Shown here in pieces: positions 15,348 to 18,957 of a stretch of DNA of 64,000 nt. Position 1 is the first letter of the stretch. Each line of letters begins with the position of its first letter. Source of the stretch: a virus. Position numbers and translations under genes: made by a program. The stretch lies in IMG/VR virus record IMGVR_UViG_3300032213_001373, positions 1 through 64,000 of that record, one strand, 5' to 3'. The notes beneath the pieces are model-generated. The model did not search any database, had not been told where the DNA came from, and saw nothing but the letters and a program-made list of their open reading frames with translations.

Positions 15348-15519
15348 GGCTACTGCCTAGAACTGTCAAAGCCTTGGAGTTATTTAGCTACTCTCATTTT
15401 AGATATCTAGCTCCCCGACTTTTTTCTTTATGATCATAGTTCCCCCGACTTTTTGCCCCACAGCTTGTCAAGTATGATCTTTCTCACATTTTGGTCATCA
15501 CCTTTTGGCTACTGCCTAG
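15348..15519 (+). repeat. Short direct repeats at the strand-switch / putative genome end
   Basis: GGCTACTGCCTAG at 15348 and 15507; TCCCC(C)GACTTTTT twice (about 15412 and 15441). Confidence 0.6.
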
Positions 15520-15597
15520 CTTTCTGGATCGTAGCAGTCACTCTCAGCTGCTGGAGACTGGGGACAGGGGCGACTTAAGGGTGGGGGGTGGCAAACC

Positions 15598-16385: not shown

Positions 16386-16508
16386 ATGCTCATACACTAT
16401 GTATGGTCATAGATGGAGAGTTCCGACCAATCGGACGACAACTATCTGTAACGATAGACTCCATACGCATAGGTTACAACTATCACTAACACTTGTGTCT
16501 TCTGTCTA

Positions 16509-16554
16509 GAAGAGCCCTCAGCCGACCCCTTTTATTGTCGGTTGGGGGCTCTTC
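16509..16554 (+). other. 18-bp hairpin (2 G-U pairs)
   Basis: GAAGAGCCCTCAGCCGAC / GTCGGTTGGGGGCTCTTC. Confidence 0.65.
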
Positions 16555-16861
16555 ACATCAGGCTACTGCTATTTAGCGCCCAAGACAGACCATCAGTAAC
16601 ACCAGGTCTGAGCAGGGCTGCTCTATCTATTATCAGGTAATTGGCTTAGTCCAGCCAGCAGAGGCTATGTCTTGTAGTTATGAGATGCCTTACTGCAAAG
16701 AGGACTTCTATCAGGTAGTTGTAGATGGAAGACATAGAACTAGGCAGTATGTTGAGGCTCGCAAGGTATTCATTTACCTAAGTAGCGTGTAGGCATACTA
16801 TCTACTCTCTGTGTCTTCTCTCTATGACTATTAGATAGTCAGTTCCCCGCCTTTTTTTCGC

Positions 16862-16947
16862 GTAGATGGTGATGGATACACAGGACTATGTCGTACTGGC
16901 CCGTCGGTCTATGAGGTCTTTTCCCTGTGTATCTCTCACTCTCTATG
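16862..16947 (+). ncRNA. Structured element E (long irregular stem)
   Basis: GATACACAGG / CCTGTGTATC extended by GTGA/TCAC and GTAGA/TCTAT. Confidence 0.4.
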
Positions 16948-16971
16948 TTGAGAGTAGTTTAGGAGCAGTAA

Positions 16972-17139
16972 ATGTTTGATGAAGATGAGTGCTGCACTCC
17001 CCTACAAGAAGCAGCCACAGTTATAGCCAAGCATCTGAGTGAGTTCTATAACGACCGCTCTCATAAAGATGAGATACCTACTTGCATAGTGTGTATGTCT
17101 TTCTTTATGGGAACACAGAACGCAGATAGTTTGGCGTAA
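16972..17139 (+). CDS. 55-aa hypothetical protein
   Basis: AGGAG RBS; MFDEDECCTPLQEAA...CIVC... Confidence 0.6.
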   Translation: MFDEDECCTPLQEAATVIAKHLSEFYNDRSHKDEIPTCIVCMSFFMGTQNADSLA

Positions 17140-17162
17140 TACACCAAATCTTCCCCGCGAAG

Positions 17163-17452
17163 TCTTGAGATGGACAGAGGGCACACTGAATAGGCTTTTG
17201 ATTATCACCGAGAACGAGGAATCTATGTGGGTGTAACTATTATCATAGAGGGGGCGTGAAGAAGCGAAGTAGTACGGACTTGGGTGCTGAGGTATCCAGG
17301 GGGCGATAGTTACCTGCCCAAGTAGGAGTGGTGTATGTAGTAAGAGACGCGACCGAGACTGCATACGGAGTGAAGCAACGCAAAAGAACTATGGCTGTGA
17401 GTCTCACGATAATACCTTTAGTAATTCAGTGTGCCGTCTGTTCATCTTAAGA
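17163..17452 (+). ncRNA. Structured element B, about 290 nt, closed by a 29-position helix
   Basis: 17163-17191 pairs with 17424-17452 (26 WC, 2 G-U, 1 mismatch); internal stems TCTATG/CATAGA, ACTTGGGT/GCCCAAGT, GAGACT/AGTCTC; terminator-like hairpin downstream. Confidence 0.65.
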
Positions 17453-17482
17453 TGATTAGTTTTTCTGACGGGATAGGGGAAA

Positions 17483-17528
17483 GCCCCTCGCCAATAGTCC
17501 CTCGCTATTGGTGAGGGGCACTTTTTTT
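17483..17528 (+). terminator. Intrinsic terminator
   Basis: GCCCCTCGCCAATAG / CTATTGGTGAGGGGC then ACTTTTTTT. Confidence 0.75.
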
Positions 17529-17555
17529 GTCCCATTTTTATCGAAAGGAACAATT

Positions 17556-17807
17556 ATGGTCACAGTTATTCGTTGTGGCACCGTCCTCCAAGGTGATGGC
17601 GGTGCTTCTACTGGTGCTGAGGTCTTGCAGTTCAAGCCCTCAATCAATGACGAGAATTGCACGATTATCTTGTGCAAAGCACCAAACAGTCCCCACCACC
17701 CCTTTGTTGTATGGACATACAACGAAATCACAGGCAAGTGCGGAACGGGAGATTACTTTGAGACAGTCACCGAGGCTGCTCAACGCTTTGACGAAAGGAA
17801 ATGGTAA
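17556..17807 (+). CDS. Hypothetical early protein
   Basis: ATG 17556 after GAAAGGA; HPFVVWTY...GDYF....EA...FDER. Confidence 0.75.
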   Translation: MVTVIRCGTVLQGDGGASTGAEVLQFKPSINDENCTIILCKAPNSPHHPFVVWTYNEITGKCGTGDYFETVTEAAQRFDERKW

Positions 17808-18019
17808 TGAACTCGTTACACATAAAGATCGACATAGCCAACACCATTGGAGAGAAACAATGGGTTGAACTACACAACAAACTAGAGGCAGAGATTCACC
17901 GCTTCTTGTTTTCATTAGTAACACAGAACAAAGTAATACCCACCCGAAAGGAAATCAATGCCATCGAACAAGTACATAGTCAGGGATTACAGTCACAAAC
18001 CGAAATGTGCCACAACTGA
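17807..18019 (+). CDS. Hypothetical protein
   Basis: Coupled TAATG junction. Confidence 0.5.
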   Translation: MNSLHIKIDIANTIGEKQWVELHNKLEAEIHRFLFSLVTQNKVIPTRKEINAIEQVHSQGLQSQTEMCHN

Positions 18020-18263
18020 GTGCATCAAGTATGTGTACAAAAACTATGCCTATTGTTATGCGTGTAATTACATACAAGAGGGTATGGAATTATCTCCCGA
18101 AGAACAGCAAGAACTAACTGAGTCTTTAAATAGAATCAGTTGTAACAGTGATAAGTACATTGATTACTTAATGAGACAAGCCCCCGGTGTCTCAGAAAAG
18201 CCTGAGGTTAGGCTAGAGAAAGCCATCAATTACAACAGCCCGTTGATTGATGAAGAAGAATAA
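17958..18263 (+). CDS. Hypothetical protein with Cys motif
   Basis: GAAAGGA RBS; C-x4-C...CxxC. Confidence 0.7.
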   Translation: MPSNKYIVRDYSHKPKCATTECIKYVYKNYAYCYACNYIQEGMELSPEEQQELTESLNRISCNSDKYIDYLMRQAPGVSEKPEVRLEKAINYNSPLIDEEE

Positions 18264-18447
18264 TTCCTCGAGAAGGGGATACACAGTAACGACCAAGGTA
18301 ATCCCACAATGGATAACAGCCGGCCCTCTGCGCTCTAAGCGCAACGGCTTAGGTGTAGACGCTTTCTACTTAAATGTTACTCACGCCTATGGGTGGGAAA
18401 GTGCTGTGGTTGGTCTGACGAGACCTGAGGTAAAACACGACCCGTAA
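18250..18447 (+). CDS. Possible hypothetical protein
   Basis: Short ORF overlapping upstream stop; weak RBS. Confidence 0.35.
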   Translation: MKKNNSSRRGYTVTTKVIPQWITAGPLRSKRNGLGVDAFYLNVTHAYGWESAVVGLTRPEVKHDP

Positions 18448-18469
18448 GCATCGGGACATACCTGCTTCC

Positions 18470-18500
18470 TCACCTGAGCAAGTGAAGGCTAAACTGCTCA
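18470..18500 (+). promoter_or_regulatory. Compact H-type pseudoknot motif, copy 1
   Basis: TCAC-CTGAGCAA-GTGA-AGGCT-AAAC-TGCTCA; covarying copy at 55531-55557. Confidence 0.65.
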
Positions 18501-18524: not shown

Positions 18525-18647
18525 ATGGCTACAGTCAGTGACATCGTAAAAGTTACTATCAAAGAATTAAATTTCAGCAAGGTTGAACCAGTAACTGCTG
18601 CAGATTGGCAGATTGTTAATAACTATCTGTTAGAACGCTGCAAGTAA
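18525..18647 (+). CDS. 40-aa microprotein
   Basis: GGAGG RBS; MATVSDIVKVTIKELNFSKVEPVTAADWQIVNNYLLERCK. Confidence 0.65.
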   Translation: MATVSDIVKVTIKELNFSKVEPVTAADWQIVNNYLLERCK

Positions 18648-18673
18648 TACTCCCGACTAAGAGTTGTTAGTTC

Positions 18674-18706
18674 GCCTGTGTAGATTTCATCGTCTATACA
18701 GGCACG
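18674..18706 (+). promoter_or_regulatory. Minihelix + ACG motif, copy 1
   Basis: GCCTGTGTAGA-TTTCATCG-TCTATACAGGC-ACG. Confidence 0.6.
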
Positions 18707-18934
18707 TGGGCAGAGACATAATGAGTGGCCAAGAGCCGAGAAGGATCATTAGTATGAAGTGCCTTATCTGTTGTAGGTTAGTCGGGTATCCCGTGGGGAA
18801 ACTACTCCCGACTTAGCAACCACTCAAAACACTAGAGACTAAATGCGTTTGCTGTTGACAGCGTTGCCTCGGGGTAACCCACGCAACGCCGAGGCTAGAG
18901 TCAGGATACCGTTGACAGTGGCGTCTCTGCCCAC
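18706..18934 (+). ncRNA. Structured element C, about 230 nt; Ms1-like candidate
   Basis: Perfect 12-bp closing helix GTGGGCAGAGAC / GTCTCTGCCCAC; internal stems; motif words GGCCAAG, GAGAAGG, CTCCCGAC, TAGCA, ACCCACGCAAC, CGCCGAGG. Confidence 0.6.
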
Positions 18935-18957
18935 ACCCTACAAGAGAAAGAAAACAA

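What the first reader, a model, noticed from the sequence alone, without database searches (positions are those of the whole stretch)
17163..17528. About 290-nt RNA-like unit clamped by a 29-position helix and followed by its own terminator
Seen: TCTTGAGATGGACAGAGGGCACACTGAAT (17163-17191) pairs with ATTCAGTGTGCCGTCTGTTCATCTTAAGA (17424-17452), giving 26 WC pairs, 2 G-U and 1 mismatch. It encloses three internal stems and purine-rich linkers, and a 15-bp hairpin plus T7 follows. No + strand ORF with an RBS spans it. This is the strongest single structure in the window. Inference: a stand-alone ncRNA, possibly released by RNase III, since the helix is long enough to be a substrate.
Basis: partly seen in the sequence, partly recalled or inferred. 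Interest (0 to 1): 0.75.

Follow-up and report, generated by a model that had tools for sequence, protein, structure and literature searches.

The report
New folded RNA in lake phages
The flagged stretch is a real, conserved, about 290-base folded RNA gene in the early region of a 102-kb freshwater phage; it matches no catalogued RNA family, its job is unknown, and large intricately folded RNAs of this kind are rare.

Summary
Arms 17163-17191 and 17424-17452 form the longest inverted repeat in the window, and a strong intrinsic terminator follows.

It is an RNA made from the + strand, not a DNA element:
- 34 distinct homologues exist in related ~100-kb freshwater phage contigs and metagenomes.
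- They share a fold of about 10 helices plus a loop-loop pseudoknot.
- 95.6% of cells pair, and 55 of 77 pairs show compensatory changes (0 of 500 shuffles reach this).
- G-U outnumbers A-C 248 to 19.
- Indels are mostly 1 nt.
- The element is single-copy, with no target-site duplication.

It matches no Rfam family. There is no tRNA or tmRNA in the window and no reverse transcriptase in the genome. No copy was found in 185,579 prokaryote genomes.

Two freshwater metatranscriptome studies hold contigs over the unit only, not its flanking genes.

Flanking genes differ between relatives. The terminator is present in about two thirds of them. In most relatives, though only weakly here, the 3' arm can instead pair with a downstream copy of the 5' arm.

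Best reading: a discrete, stable RNA excised from the early transcript at the clamp helix, with an unknown partner.

The scan has already found this family in three other genomes, with the same verdict.

The parts
16972..17139 (+). Upstream 55-aa ORF with an AGGAG RBS. Its stop codon TAA (17137-17139) lies inside the conserved 5' flank of the RNA unit.
   Evidence: The protein family recurs in relatives (F14). There is no Pfam or PHROG match.
17136..17162 (+). Conserved 5' flank GTAATACACCAAATCTTCCCCGCGAAG. It is the left border of the conserved module. In relatives, three non-homologous upstream ORF families all end at this TAA.
   Evidence: A variant RNA contig in run X17 begins at CACCAATTC, 20 nt before P1.
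17163..17191 (+). P1 5' arm, the clamp helix.
   Evidence: Covariation (helix 1: 22 of 34 pairs changed on both sides, 98.6% of cells paired).
17194..17213 (+). 5' strands of the stalk extensions. P1a 17194-17197, G17200, P1b 17201-17204, P1c 17210-17213. They pair with 17419-17422, C17416, 17410-17413 and 17402-17405.
   Evidence: P1b column 51/284: GC 22, AU 11. P1c column 60/276: AU 23, GC 6, GU 4.
17214..17257 (+). P2 domain. The base helix 17214-17216 pairs with 17255-17257. The hairpin stem 17223-17227 pairs with 17244-17248. The 16-nt loop carries the pseudoknot strand.
   Evidence: helices 3 and 4 (98-100% paired). Column 74/103 has five different standard pair types.
17233..17240 (+). 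Pseudoknot 5' strand GUAACUAU in the P2 loop. It pairs with AUAGUUAC at 17306-17313.
   Evidence: The duplex is -9 to -11 kcal/mol in this sequence type (z -3 to -4.5). Compensated variants are ACAACUAU/AUAGUUGU (L194) and GGCUA(A)/(U)UAGUC in the second type. Column-wise 76% of cells pair, because the second type is shifted in register.
17258..17277 (+). Conserved purine-rich junction GAAGAAGCGAAGUAGUACGG. It includes the 5' strands of P6' (17264-17265) and P6 (17269-17273).
   Evidence: Invariant and nearly invariant columns. For P6, 5 of 5 pairs changed on both sides (helix 7).
17278..17323 (+). P4 domain. ACUUGGG 17278-17284 pairs with CCCAAGU 17317-17323. The domain encloses the mini-hairpin P4a (17295-17297 with 17301-17303) and the pseudoknot 3' strand 17306-17313.
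   Evidence: helices 8-10. Variants ACUUAGG/CCUAAGU and ACUAUGGG/CCCAUAGU appear.
17333..17366 (+). P5 hairpin. GUAUGUAGU pairs with ACUGCAUAC. The loop holds the semi-conserved AGACGCGAC. The hairpin varies in length among relatives.
   Evidence: helix 11 (6 of 6 pairs changed on both sides). One-sided changes in the closest relatives keep the pairs.
17367..17423 (+). 3' half of the core. It holds the conserved junction ACGCAA.AG, the P6 3' strand 17388-17392, the P6' 3' strand 17397-17398 inside the palindromic word GUGAGUCUCAC (17397-17407), the 3' strands of P1c, P1b and P1a, and the invariant A17423.
17424..17452 (+). P1 3' arm.
   Evidence: This arm varies C to U opposite an almost invariant G-rich 5' arm, which is G-U tolerance on the + strand.
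17442..17455 (+). Weak local version (UCAUC-UUAA-GAUGA) of the alternative hairpin, in which the outer 3' arm pairs with a downstream copy of the 5' arm.
   Evidence: In this window the hairpin is not significant (-7.7 kcal/mol, 84 of 300 shuffles as good). In most relatives it is about 10 bp, -13 to -16 kcal/mol, with compensated variants.
17483..17530 (+). Intrinsic terminator: a 16-pair hairpin followed by a T7 run.
   Evidence: It is compensated in L214/L171 and replaced by unrelated terminator hairpins in other relatives. It is absent in L029, L023, L019, L218 and L198.
17557..17807 (+). Downstream 83-aa ORF with its own RBS. It is not a constant neighbour of the RNA.
   Evidence: Runs X18 and X19 hold RNA contigs over it but not over the RNA unit.

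Best explanation
B is the gene of a previously uncatalogued, complex-folded non-coding RNA of about 290 nt, restricted to one clade of ~100-kb freshwater tailed phages. The hosts are probably actinobacteria.

Shown:
- It is read on the + strand.
- It folds into a long irregular stalk (P1, P1a, P1b, P1c; about 45 pairs).
- The stalk carries a compact head built from a P2 hairpin and a P6/P4/P5 three-way domain.
- An 8-bp contact between the P2 loop and the interior of P4 ties the head together.
- Purine-rich junction strands are nearly invariant.

Inferred:
- It has no promoter of its own. It is transcribed with the upstream early ORF, whose stop codon sits 24 nt before P1.
- It is then cut out of that transcript at or near the clamp helix. 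RNase III is the obvious candidate, since the helix is 18-29 bp in every member.
- The result is a discrete, stable RNA that outlasts the neighbouring mRNA.
- In most relatives the released 3' arm can refold with a downstream copy of the 5' arm into a 10-bp hairpin just before the next gene's Shine-Dalgarno sequence. This would cap the 5' end of the downstream mRNA.
- The conserved head then acts in trans, most likely by binding a host or phage protein early in infection. The partner is unknown.
For: Homologues and covariation:
- There are 34 distinct members.
- RNAalifold gives 69 pairs, 47 of them compensated.
- On the model-fitted alignment, 95.6% of cells pair, 55 of 77 pairs change on both sides, 0 of 500 shuffles reach the observed values, and slid controls give 34-45% pairing.

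Strand and non-coding nature:
- G-U/U-G 248 against A-C/C-A 19, and 207 of 224 indel runs are 1 nt.
- The covariance model scores 298 bits on + and 25 bits on -.

Module independent of its neighbours:
- At least five upstream and eight downstream ORF families occur next to it.
- The border is fixed at GTAATACACC.

Discrete RNA:
- Run X15 (one study) has a 233-nt contig covering 17196-17427.
- Run X17 (another study) has pieces covering 17163-17421, plus a 285-nt variant contig at depth 63.
- Neither run holds anything over 16500-17100 or 17440-17600.

Alternative hairpin:
- It has compensated variants in L194, L023, L019, L016/L017 and L256.

Other families excluded:
- No Rfam family matches.
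- No tRNA or tmRNA is found in the window.
- No reverse transcriptase is found in the genome.
Against: - No RNA ends are known. Contigs cannot show ends, strand or level, and the runs were chosen because they hold this stretch.
- RNase III cleavage is untested.
- A trans function and a protein partner are pure inference. No gene co-occurs with the RNA at a fixed position.
- In this window the alternative hairpin is weak, and a terminator rather than an mRNA follows.
- The sequences are related to one another, and alignment A5 was fitted to the model. Both inflate the pair statistics somewhat.
- Five complete, more distant phages of the group lack the RNA, so it is dispensable for the phage type.
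Confidence: 0.45

Rival explanations
1. It is a purely cis-acting intercistronic module. The folded unit insulates, processes or stabilises the early polycistronic transcript. The clamp helix brings the upstream stop codon and the downstream Shine-Dalgarno sequence together, and after cleavage it leaves protective hairpins on the flanking mRNAs. The head has no trans target.
For: - The stop codon lies at a fixed 24-25 nt before P1 for three unrelated upstream ORF families.
- In five relatives an SD-like purine run or a real RBS with start codon follows directly after the unit.
- The alternative 10-bp hairpin sits just before that SD.
- A similar layout, GTAATACTCC stop then folded unit then SD, occurs at element C, 18644-18957.
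- T7 early mRNAs are punctuated by RNase III hairpins (established knowledge).
Against: - A processing site needs only a hairpin.
- Here about 230 nt of interior carry six or more covarying helices, a pseudoknot and near-invariant junction strands. This points to selection on a three-dimensional fold.
- In this genome and about two thirds of relatives a terminator follows, so there is no downstream mRNA to couple to.
- The pairing of CUUCCCC with GGGGAA(A)G (P0) is no better than shuffles.
Confidence: 0.25
2. It is a riboswitch-like or attenuator element. The head senses a ligand or factor. P1 (strands X:X') competes with the alternative hairpin (X':X2) to control the downstream terminator or ribosome-binding site.
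For: - The anatomy is that of an aptamer closed by P1, followed by a terminator and then a gene.
- P1-outer and the alternative hairpin are nearly isoenergetic in most relatives: -14 to -18 against -13 to -16 kcal/mol.
- Conserved junction nucleotides are typical of ligand pockets.
Against: - Downstream genes belong to at least eight unrelated families, and none is metabolic.
- The strand X2 does not overlap the terminator stem in any sequence type, so the classic logic is missing.
- The inner 15-19 bp of P1 are not competed for.
- The terminator is absent in five relatives.
- No riboswitch family in Rfam matches.
Confidence: 0.07
3. It is a catalytic or self-assembling RNA: either a new ribozyme, or an RNA that oligomerises through the 8-bp loop-loop contact made between molecules, as in phi29 pRNA, ROOL and GOLLD.
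For: - Its size, its pseudoknot and its invariant purine-rich junctions are what large ribozymes and ornate RNAs show.
- The loop-loop helix could form within one molecule or between molecules. Sequence alone cannot tell.
- Run X17 holds a preferred fragment end at 17232, right before the pseudoknot strand (table 7).
Against: - There is no evidence of cleavage products or joints (table 5: none).
- The 17232 end comes from one run and one contig.
- The phage has an ordinary terminase and portal, so a pRNA-type packaging role is not needed.
- No Rfam ribozyme or pRNA match was found.
Confidence: 0.1
4. It is a DNA-level element: a miniature transposon with terminal inverted repeats, a replication origin, or a protein-binding palindrome.
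For: - It has 29-nt inverted arms.
- The 5' arm word recurs downstream of the 3' arm in many relatives.
- Flanking genes are mosaic.
Against: - It is a single copy in a complete 102-kb genome and in every relative.
- It has no target-site duplication.
- Arm mismatches are G-T on the + strand and C-A on the other (248 against 19).
- Interior helices covary.
- It always has the same orientation relative to the early genes.
- It is present in RNA libraries without its flanks.
Confidence: 0.02

Closest known systems
RNase III processing stems: the helices formed by sequences flanking 16S and 23S rRNA, and sites R0.3 to R1.3 between the early genes of phage T7
   Same: A long duplex (18-29 bp here), made by sequences on both sides of a folded RNA or between cistrons of an early phage transcript. 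It is long enough to be an RNase III substrate. After cutting, hairpins could remain on the flanking mRNAs.
   Different: Cleavage has not been shown. T7 sites are simple ~60-nt hairpins, whereas this helix encloses a conserved ~230-nt pseudoknotted core. The enclosed RNA is not rRNA or tRNA.
GOLLD, ROOL and OLE (large ornate bacterial and phage RNAs of poorly understood function)
   Same: An orphan, large, multi-helix RNA with pseudoknots and strong covariation. It is phage-borne and seen in RNA libraries.
   Different: It is much smaller (290 nt against about 580-800 nt). There is no sequence or covariance-model match in Rfam 15. There is no evidence of oligomers. Its distribution is narrow, one phage clade.
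phi29 packaging RNA (pRNA)
   Same: A phage-encoded RNA whose 5' and 3' ends form a long basal helix below a junction. The junction carries two loops that are complementary to each other.
   Different: pRNA is 120-174 nt, and its 4-nt loop contacts form between molecules on the portal of small protein-primed phages. This phage has a terminase. The loop contact here is 8 bp. No Rfam pRNA match was found.
6S RNA and Ms1 (RNA-polymerase-binding RNAs; Ms1 is the ~300-nt actinobacterial form)
   Same: Similar size, closed by a long terminal helix, abundant and stable, and plausibly a protein decoy in an actinobacterial setting.
   Different: There is no central open-promoter-like bubble. No match to the 6S or Ms1 models was found at E up to 10. 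Binding is untested.
Transcription-terminating riboswitches
   Same: A P1-closed multi-helix domain with conserved junctions, followed by an intrinsic terminator and a gene.
   Different: P1 is far too long to switch. No strand is shared between P1 and the terminator. The downstream genes are unrelated to one another. The terminator is missing in some members.

Membership tests
Any Rfam 15 family (4227 models) | A covariance-model match at the gathering score, or at least a suggestive E-value | tested here: not met
   There were 0 matches at the gathering score in the whole window. At E up to 10 on 16700-17700, the only hits were chance matches to the terminator hairpin and to a stretch upstream of the unit (16858-16942): MIR1033, Antizyme_FSE, sno_ZL8.
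tRNA / tmRNA | Cloverleaf or tRNA-like domain with a tag reading frame | tested here: not met
   ARAGORN found 0 genes in the window.
Retron msr-msd RNA | A reverse transcriptase gene next to the RNA, which is closed by a1/a2 inverted repeats | tested here: not met
   PF00078 has no match in the complete 102-kb genome, while the control genomes did match. The neighbouring ORFs are 55 and 83 aa.
Miniature inverted-repeat transposable element | Multiple copies per genome or empty sites; a target-site duplication outside the terminal inverted repeats | tested here: not met
   There is one copy in the genome and no direct repeat flanking the arms. Arm mismatches are strand-asymmetric.
Riboswitch with terminator expression platform | A constant class of regulated downstream genes | tested here: not met
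   At least eight unrelated downstream ORF families were seen.
Riboswitch with terminator expression platform | The P1 3' strand shared with an antiterminator that overlaps the terminator stem | tested here: not met
   The partner of the alternative hairpin lies 15-30 nt before the terminator stem and does not overlap it. The terminator is absent in five relatives.
RNase III substrate | A double-stranded segment of about 20 bp or more | tested here: met
   The helix is 29 bp here and 18-27 bp in the most distant members.
RNase III substrate | Staggered cleavage in the helix, in vivo or in vitro | not testable with these tools
   Only contigs of RNA runs were available. They stop at 17421-17427 and start at 17163-17196 but cannot define ends.
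Group I intron | Interrupts a gene, has a P3-P7 core with a guanosine site, and matches the Rfam Intron_gpI model | tested here: not met
   The unit lies between ORFs, 24 nt after a stop codon. There is no Rfam match. RNA contigs show no spliced joint (table 5).
6S / Ms1 RNA | A long helix interrupted by a large central bubble, and binding to RNA polymerase | tested here: inconclusive
   No model match was found. The consensus fold has a branched head instead of a bubble. Binding cannot be tested here.

The most novel reading that the evidence does not exclude
B is the founding member of a new class of large trans-acting phage RNAs. On this reading the pseudoknotted head is either a catalytic centre, a self-assembling unit, or a high-affinity decoy for a host enzyme such as RNA polymerase, an RNase or a defence protein.
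Probability: 0.25. Interest if true: 0.85.

Novelty: new member of a known kind. Interest (0 to 1): 0.6.

Why it matters
Large RNAs with many covarying helices, a pseudoknot and invariant junctions are rare. Those that have been solved turned out to be ribozymes, riboswitches, scaffolds or RNA cages. This one is phage-borne, lies among the earliest genes, is seen in lake metatranscriptomes without its neighbours, and belongs to abundant freshwater phages of uncultured hosts. It gives a defined, testable 290-nt object, with a covariance model and 34 natural variants. It can be used to ask what structured RNAs do during phage takeover, and whether helix-clamped units are a general way of packing stable RNAs into phage operons.

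Tried and rejected
- Rfam at the gathering score and at E up to 10: nothing relevant.
- ARAGORN: no gene found.
- blastn against 50,697 deposited phage records: no match.
- Reverse transcriptase search in the genome: none, so it is not a retron.
Only one true member turned up among 119 stretches.
- Scan of 185,579 prokaryote genomes with the specific motif: 14 stretches, none confirmed by nhmmer. This is a motif test, not a full model search of host genomes.
- Covariance-model search of five complete, more distant phages of the group, and of other distant loci: no member.
- Paralogy with the other folded units of the window: none. Only weak hits with E near 1.
- An outer helix P0 (CUUCCCC 17150-17156 with GGGGAAA 17476-17482): it recurs, but is no better than shuffles. 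It was left out of the model.
- The pseudoknot in the second sequence type, tested by duplex energy alone: not significant. Its support is the change of both strands between types.
- Circular or spliced forms: no joints in the RNA contigs, which is weak evidence.
- Literature: the 2023 catalogue of 10,006 viral candidate structured RNAs reports lengths of 29-151 nt, so it does not hold a unit of this size as a whole (PMC10690425). Searches on freshwater actinophages found no RNA of this kind.
- A whiB-type or any other Pfam domain in the small neighbouring ORFs: none.

Full report
**Setting**

The window is the first 64 kb of a complete 102,327-bp viral record with direct terminal repeats. It is a tailed phage. 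Markers found:
- terminase and SPP1-type portal;
- HslV-like peptidase, a MoxR/CobS-like ATPase and a VWA protein;
- DUF4192, which I recall from my own knowledge as typical of actinobacteria and their phages (not tested here), and a B12-dependent ribonucleotide reductase.

All DNA runs that hold the stretch are freshwater metagenomes. The finding lies in a 6-kb + strand region of short early ORFs that begins at a divergent switch near 15.3-15.8 kb.

**Observation**

- Arms 17163-17191 and 17424-17452 are 29 nt, 90% complementary, 232 nt apart.
- They form the longest inverted repeat within 600 nt in the window.
- The + strand folds to -146.4 kcal/mol (z -6.7). The - strand folds to -110.1 kcal/mol (z -4.6).
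- A 16-pair hairpin with a T7 run follows at 17483-17530.

**Homologues**

- The flanking proteins led to two close relatives.
- The MoxR/CobS-like protein gave 26 loci at 52-99% identity. nhmmer found the element in all loci with 74% identity or more and enough flank, always on the same strand.
- A specific motif from the 3' core hit 14 viral contigs, all true members.
- Its relaxed form hit 59 metagenome stretches, 47 of them true.
- After removing duplicates, 33 distinct sequences were aligned (A4). One more divergent member came from a search with a neighbouring protein family.
- No member was found in 50,697 deposited phages.
- None was found in 185,579 prokaryote genomes at the motif level.
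- None was found in five complete, more distant ~100-kb phages of the same group.
- The genome holds one copy and no paralogue.

**Structure**

RNAalifold predicts 69 pairs, 47 with compensatory changes. A covariance model was built (R1) and used to realign all members (A5).

Counts on A5, with the pseudoknot added:

| Measure | Value |
|---|---|
| Cells paired | 95.6% |
| Pairs changed on both sides | 55 of 77 |
| Cells changed on both sides | 301 |
| Shuffles reaching any of the five measures | 0 of 500 |
| Cells paired when partners are slid by 1-3 columns | 34-45% |

The alignment was fitted to the model and the sequences are related, so these figures lean upward. The gap to the slid controls is nevertheless very large.

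The fold, in window coordinates:
- a stalk of P1 (29 bp), P1a, P1b and P1c, separated by small conserved internal loops;
- a junction carrying P2 (17214-17257) and a domain closed by P6'/P6 that holds P4 (17278-17323, with mini-hairpin P4a) and P5 (17333-17366).

The P2 loop strand GUAACUAU (17233-17240) is complementary to AUAGUUAC (17306-17313) inside P4. This contact is kept through double changes:
- ACAACUAU/AUAGUUGU in L194;
- GGCUA(A)/(U)UAGUC, or GACUA/UAGUC, in the second sequence type;
- GGAUAUA/UAUAUUCC in L018.

It is therefore a probable loop-loop pseudoknot. I cannot tell whether it forms within one molecule or between molecules. In the second type it partly competes with P4. The junction strands GAAGAAGC, ACGGACU, GAGG, AGUAAG, ACGCAAGAG and GUGAG are nearly invariant.

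**RNA, and which strand**

- Among paired cells, G-U/U-G occur 248 times and A-C/C-A 19 times.
- The G-rich 5' arm of P1 is almost invariant, while the 3' arm drifts between C and U.
- The model scores 298 bits on + and 25 bits on -.
- Of 224 indel runs, 207 are 1 nt long, so the stretch is not coding.
- There is no target-site duplication.

The DNA-element reading is rejected.

**Expression**

Six freshwater or lake metatranscriptome runs hold 7-15% of the sampled words of a 1-kb query in which the unit makes up 30%. Four were laid on 16500-18500.
- X15 has one 233-nt contig covering 17196-17427.
- X17, from another study, has pieces covering 17163-17421, plus a 285-nt contig at depth 63. That contig is a natural variant of the unit and starts 20 nt before P1.
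- Neither run has anything over the upstream ORFs or over 17440-17600.
- X18 and X19 hold only the downstream gene.

Contigs cannot give ends, strand or level. Still, DNA contamination would not single out the unit. The pattern fits a discrete RNA roughly co-extensive with B that does not extend to the terminator. No joints were seen.

**Context**

- The conserved module starts at GTAATACACC (17136). This word includes the stop codon of the upstream ORF. In relatives, three unrelated ORF families end at this same TAA.
- No promoter-like site precedes the unit. Sequence further upstream is not conserved.
- Downstream, about two thirds of relatives have an intrinsic terminator, of at least three unrelated sequences. 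Five relatives have a Shine-Dalgarno sequence and a start codon at once.
- At least eight downstream ORF families occur.

The unit is therefore neither a leader nor a trailer of any particular gene.

**An extra feature: the alternative hairpin**

In most members the outer 10 nt of the 3' arm can pair with a downstream copy of the 5' arm.
- Examples: CUAUCUAUCUC-loop-GAGGUAGAUA, and CUGUCUUAUC-loop-GAUAAGACAG in L016/L017. The energy is -13 to -16 kcal/mol, with few shuffles as good.
- Compensated variants occur in L194, L023, L019 and L256.
- Its energy is close to that of outer P1.
- It sits just before the purine-rich Shine-Dalgarno-like run.
- In this window it is only UCAUC-UUAA-GAUGA and is not significant.

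**Interpretation**

The data show a conserved, complex RNA fold. They suggest a discrete, stable RNA. What follows is inference.

My best reading (0.45):
- B is co-transcribed with the upstream early ORF.
- It is excised at the clamp helix. RNase III is the natural candidate.
- Where an mRNA continues, the leftover 3' arm refolds into a 5' hairpin.
- The head acts in trans on an unknown partner.

Rivals:
- a purely cis-acting punctuation and stability module (0.25);
- a catalytic or self-assembling RNA (0.10);
- a riboswitch-like attenuator (0.07);
- a DNA element (0.02).

**Comparison with known systems**

B works most like the helix-clamped RNAs of rRNA operons and the RNase III-punctuated early transcript of T7. 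It resembles GOLLD, ROOL and OLE in being an ornate orphan RNA. Its basal helix and complementary loops recall phi29 pRNA. It is a member of none of these (see the membership table).

The published catalogue of viral candidate structured RNAs reports lengths of only 29-151 nt (PMC10690425).

**Earlier notes of this scan**

The scan had flagged this same family in three other genomes. Each time it was judged a new structured RNA of freshwater actinophages with unknown function. My independent tests agree.

Noticed in passing
17136-17145 and 18644-18653: The word GTAATAC(A/T)CC holds the stop codon of the ORF just before folded unit B. With one change, it also holds the stop codon of the ORF just before folded unit C (18706-18934). 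It may be a shared punctuation or processing signal.
   Followed up: partly
17232: In metatranscriptome run X17, an 80-nt contig joins Illumina adapter letters directly to position 17232. This marks a preferred fragment end in the P2 loop, one base before the pseudoknot strand. It could be an RNA end, a reverse-transcription stop or chance (table 7).
   Followed up: no
L166, L187, L204, L218, L194 (5' flank of the unit): In these relatives the word TTCCCCGCGAA before P1 is tandemly duplicated (TTCCCCGCGAATTTTCCCCGCGAAGT).
   Followed up: no
L166, L204, L205 and similar (3' flank of the unit): An SD-like run GAGAAGGGGGA is separated from the next ORF's ATG by the terminator hairpin. The ATG follows the T run directly. 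When folded, the hairpin would bring the SD and the start codon together.
   Followed up: no
They are not paralogues of B by profile or covariance-model search. I did not analyse them further.
   Followed up: partly
15349-15361 and 15508-15520; 15412-15424 and 15441-15454: Repeated words sit in the divergent intergenic region upstream of the early genes: GGCTACTGCCTAG twice, and CCCCGACTTTTT twice. They may be promoter or operator signals.
   Followed up: no
17397-17407: The conserved palindromic word GTGAGTCTCAC lies in the 3' core. In L010 both halves change together (GCGAG..CTCGC). In the consensus fold its two halves pair with different partners (P6' and P1c), so the palindrome itself is unexplained.
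   Followed up: partly
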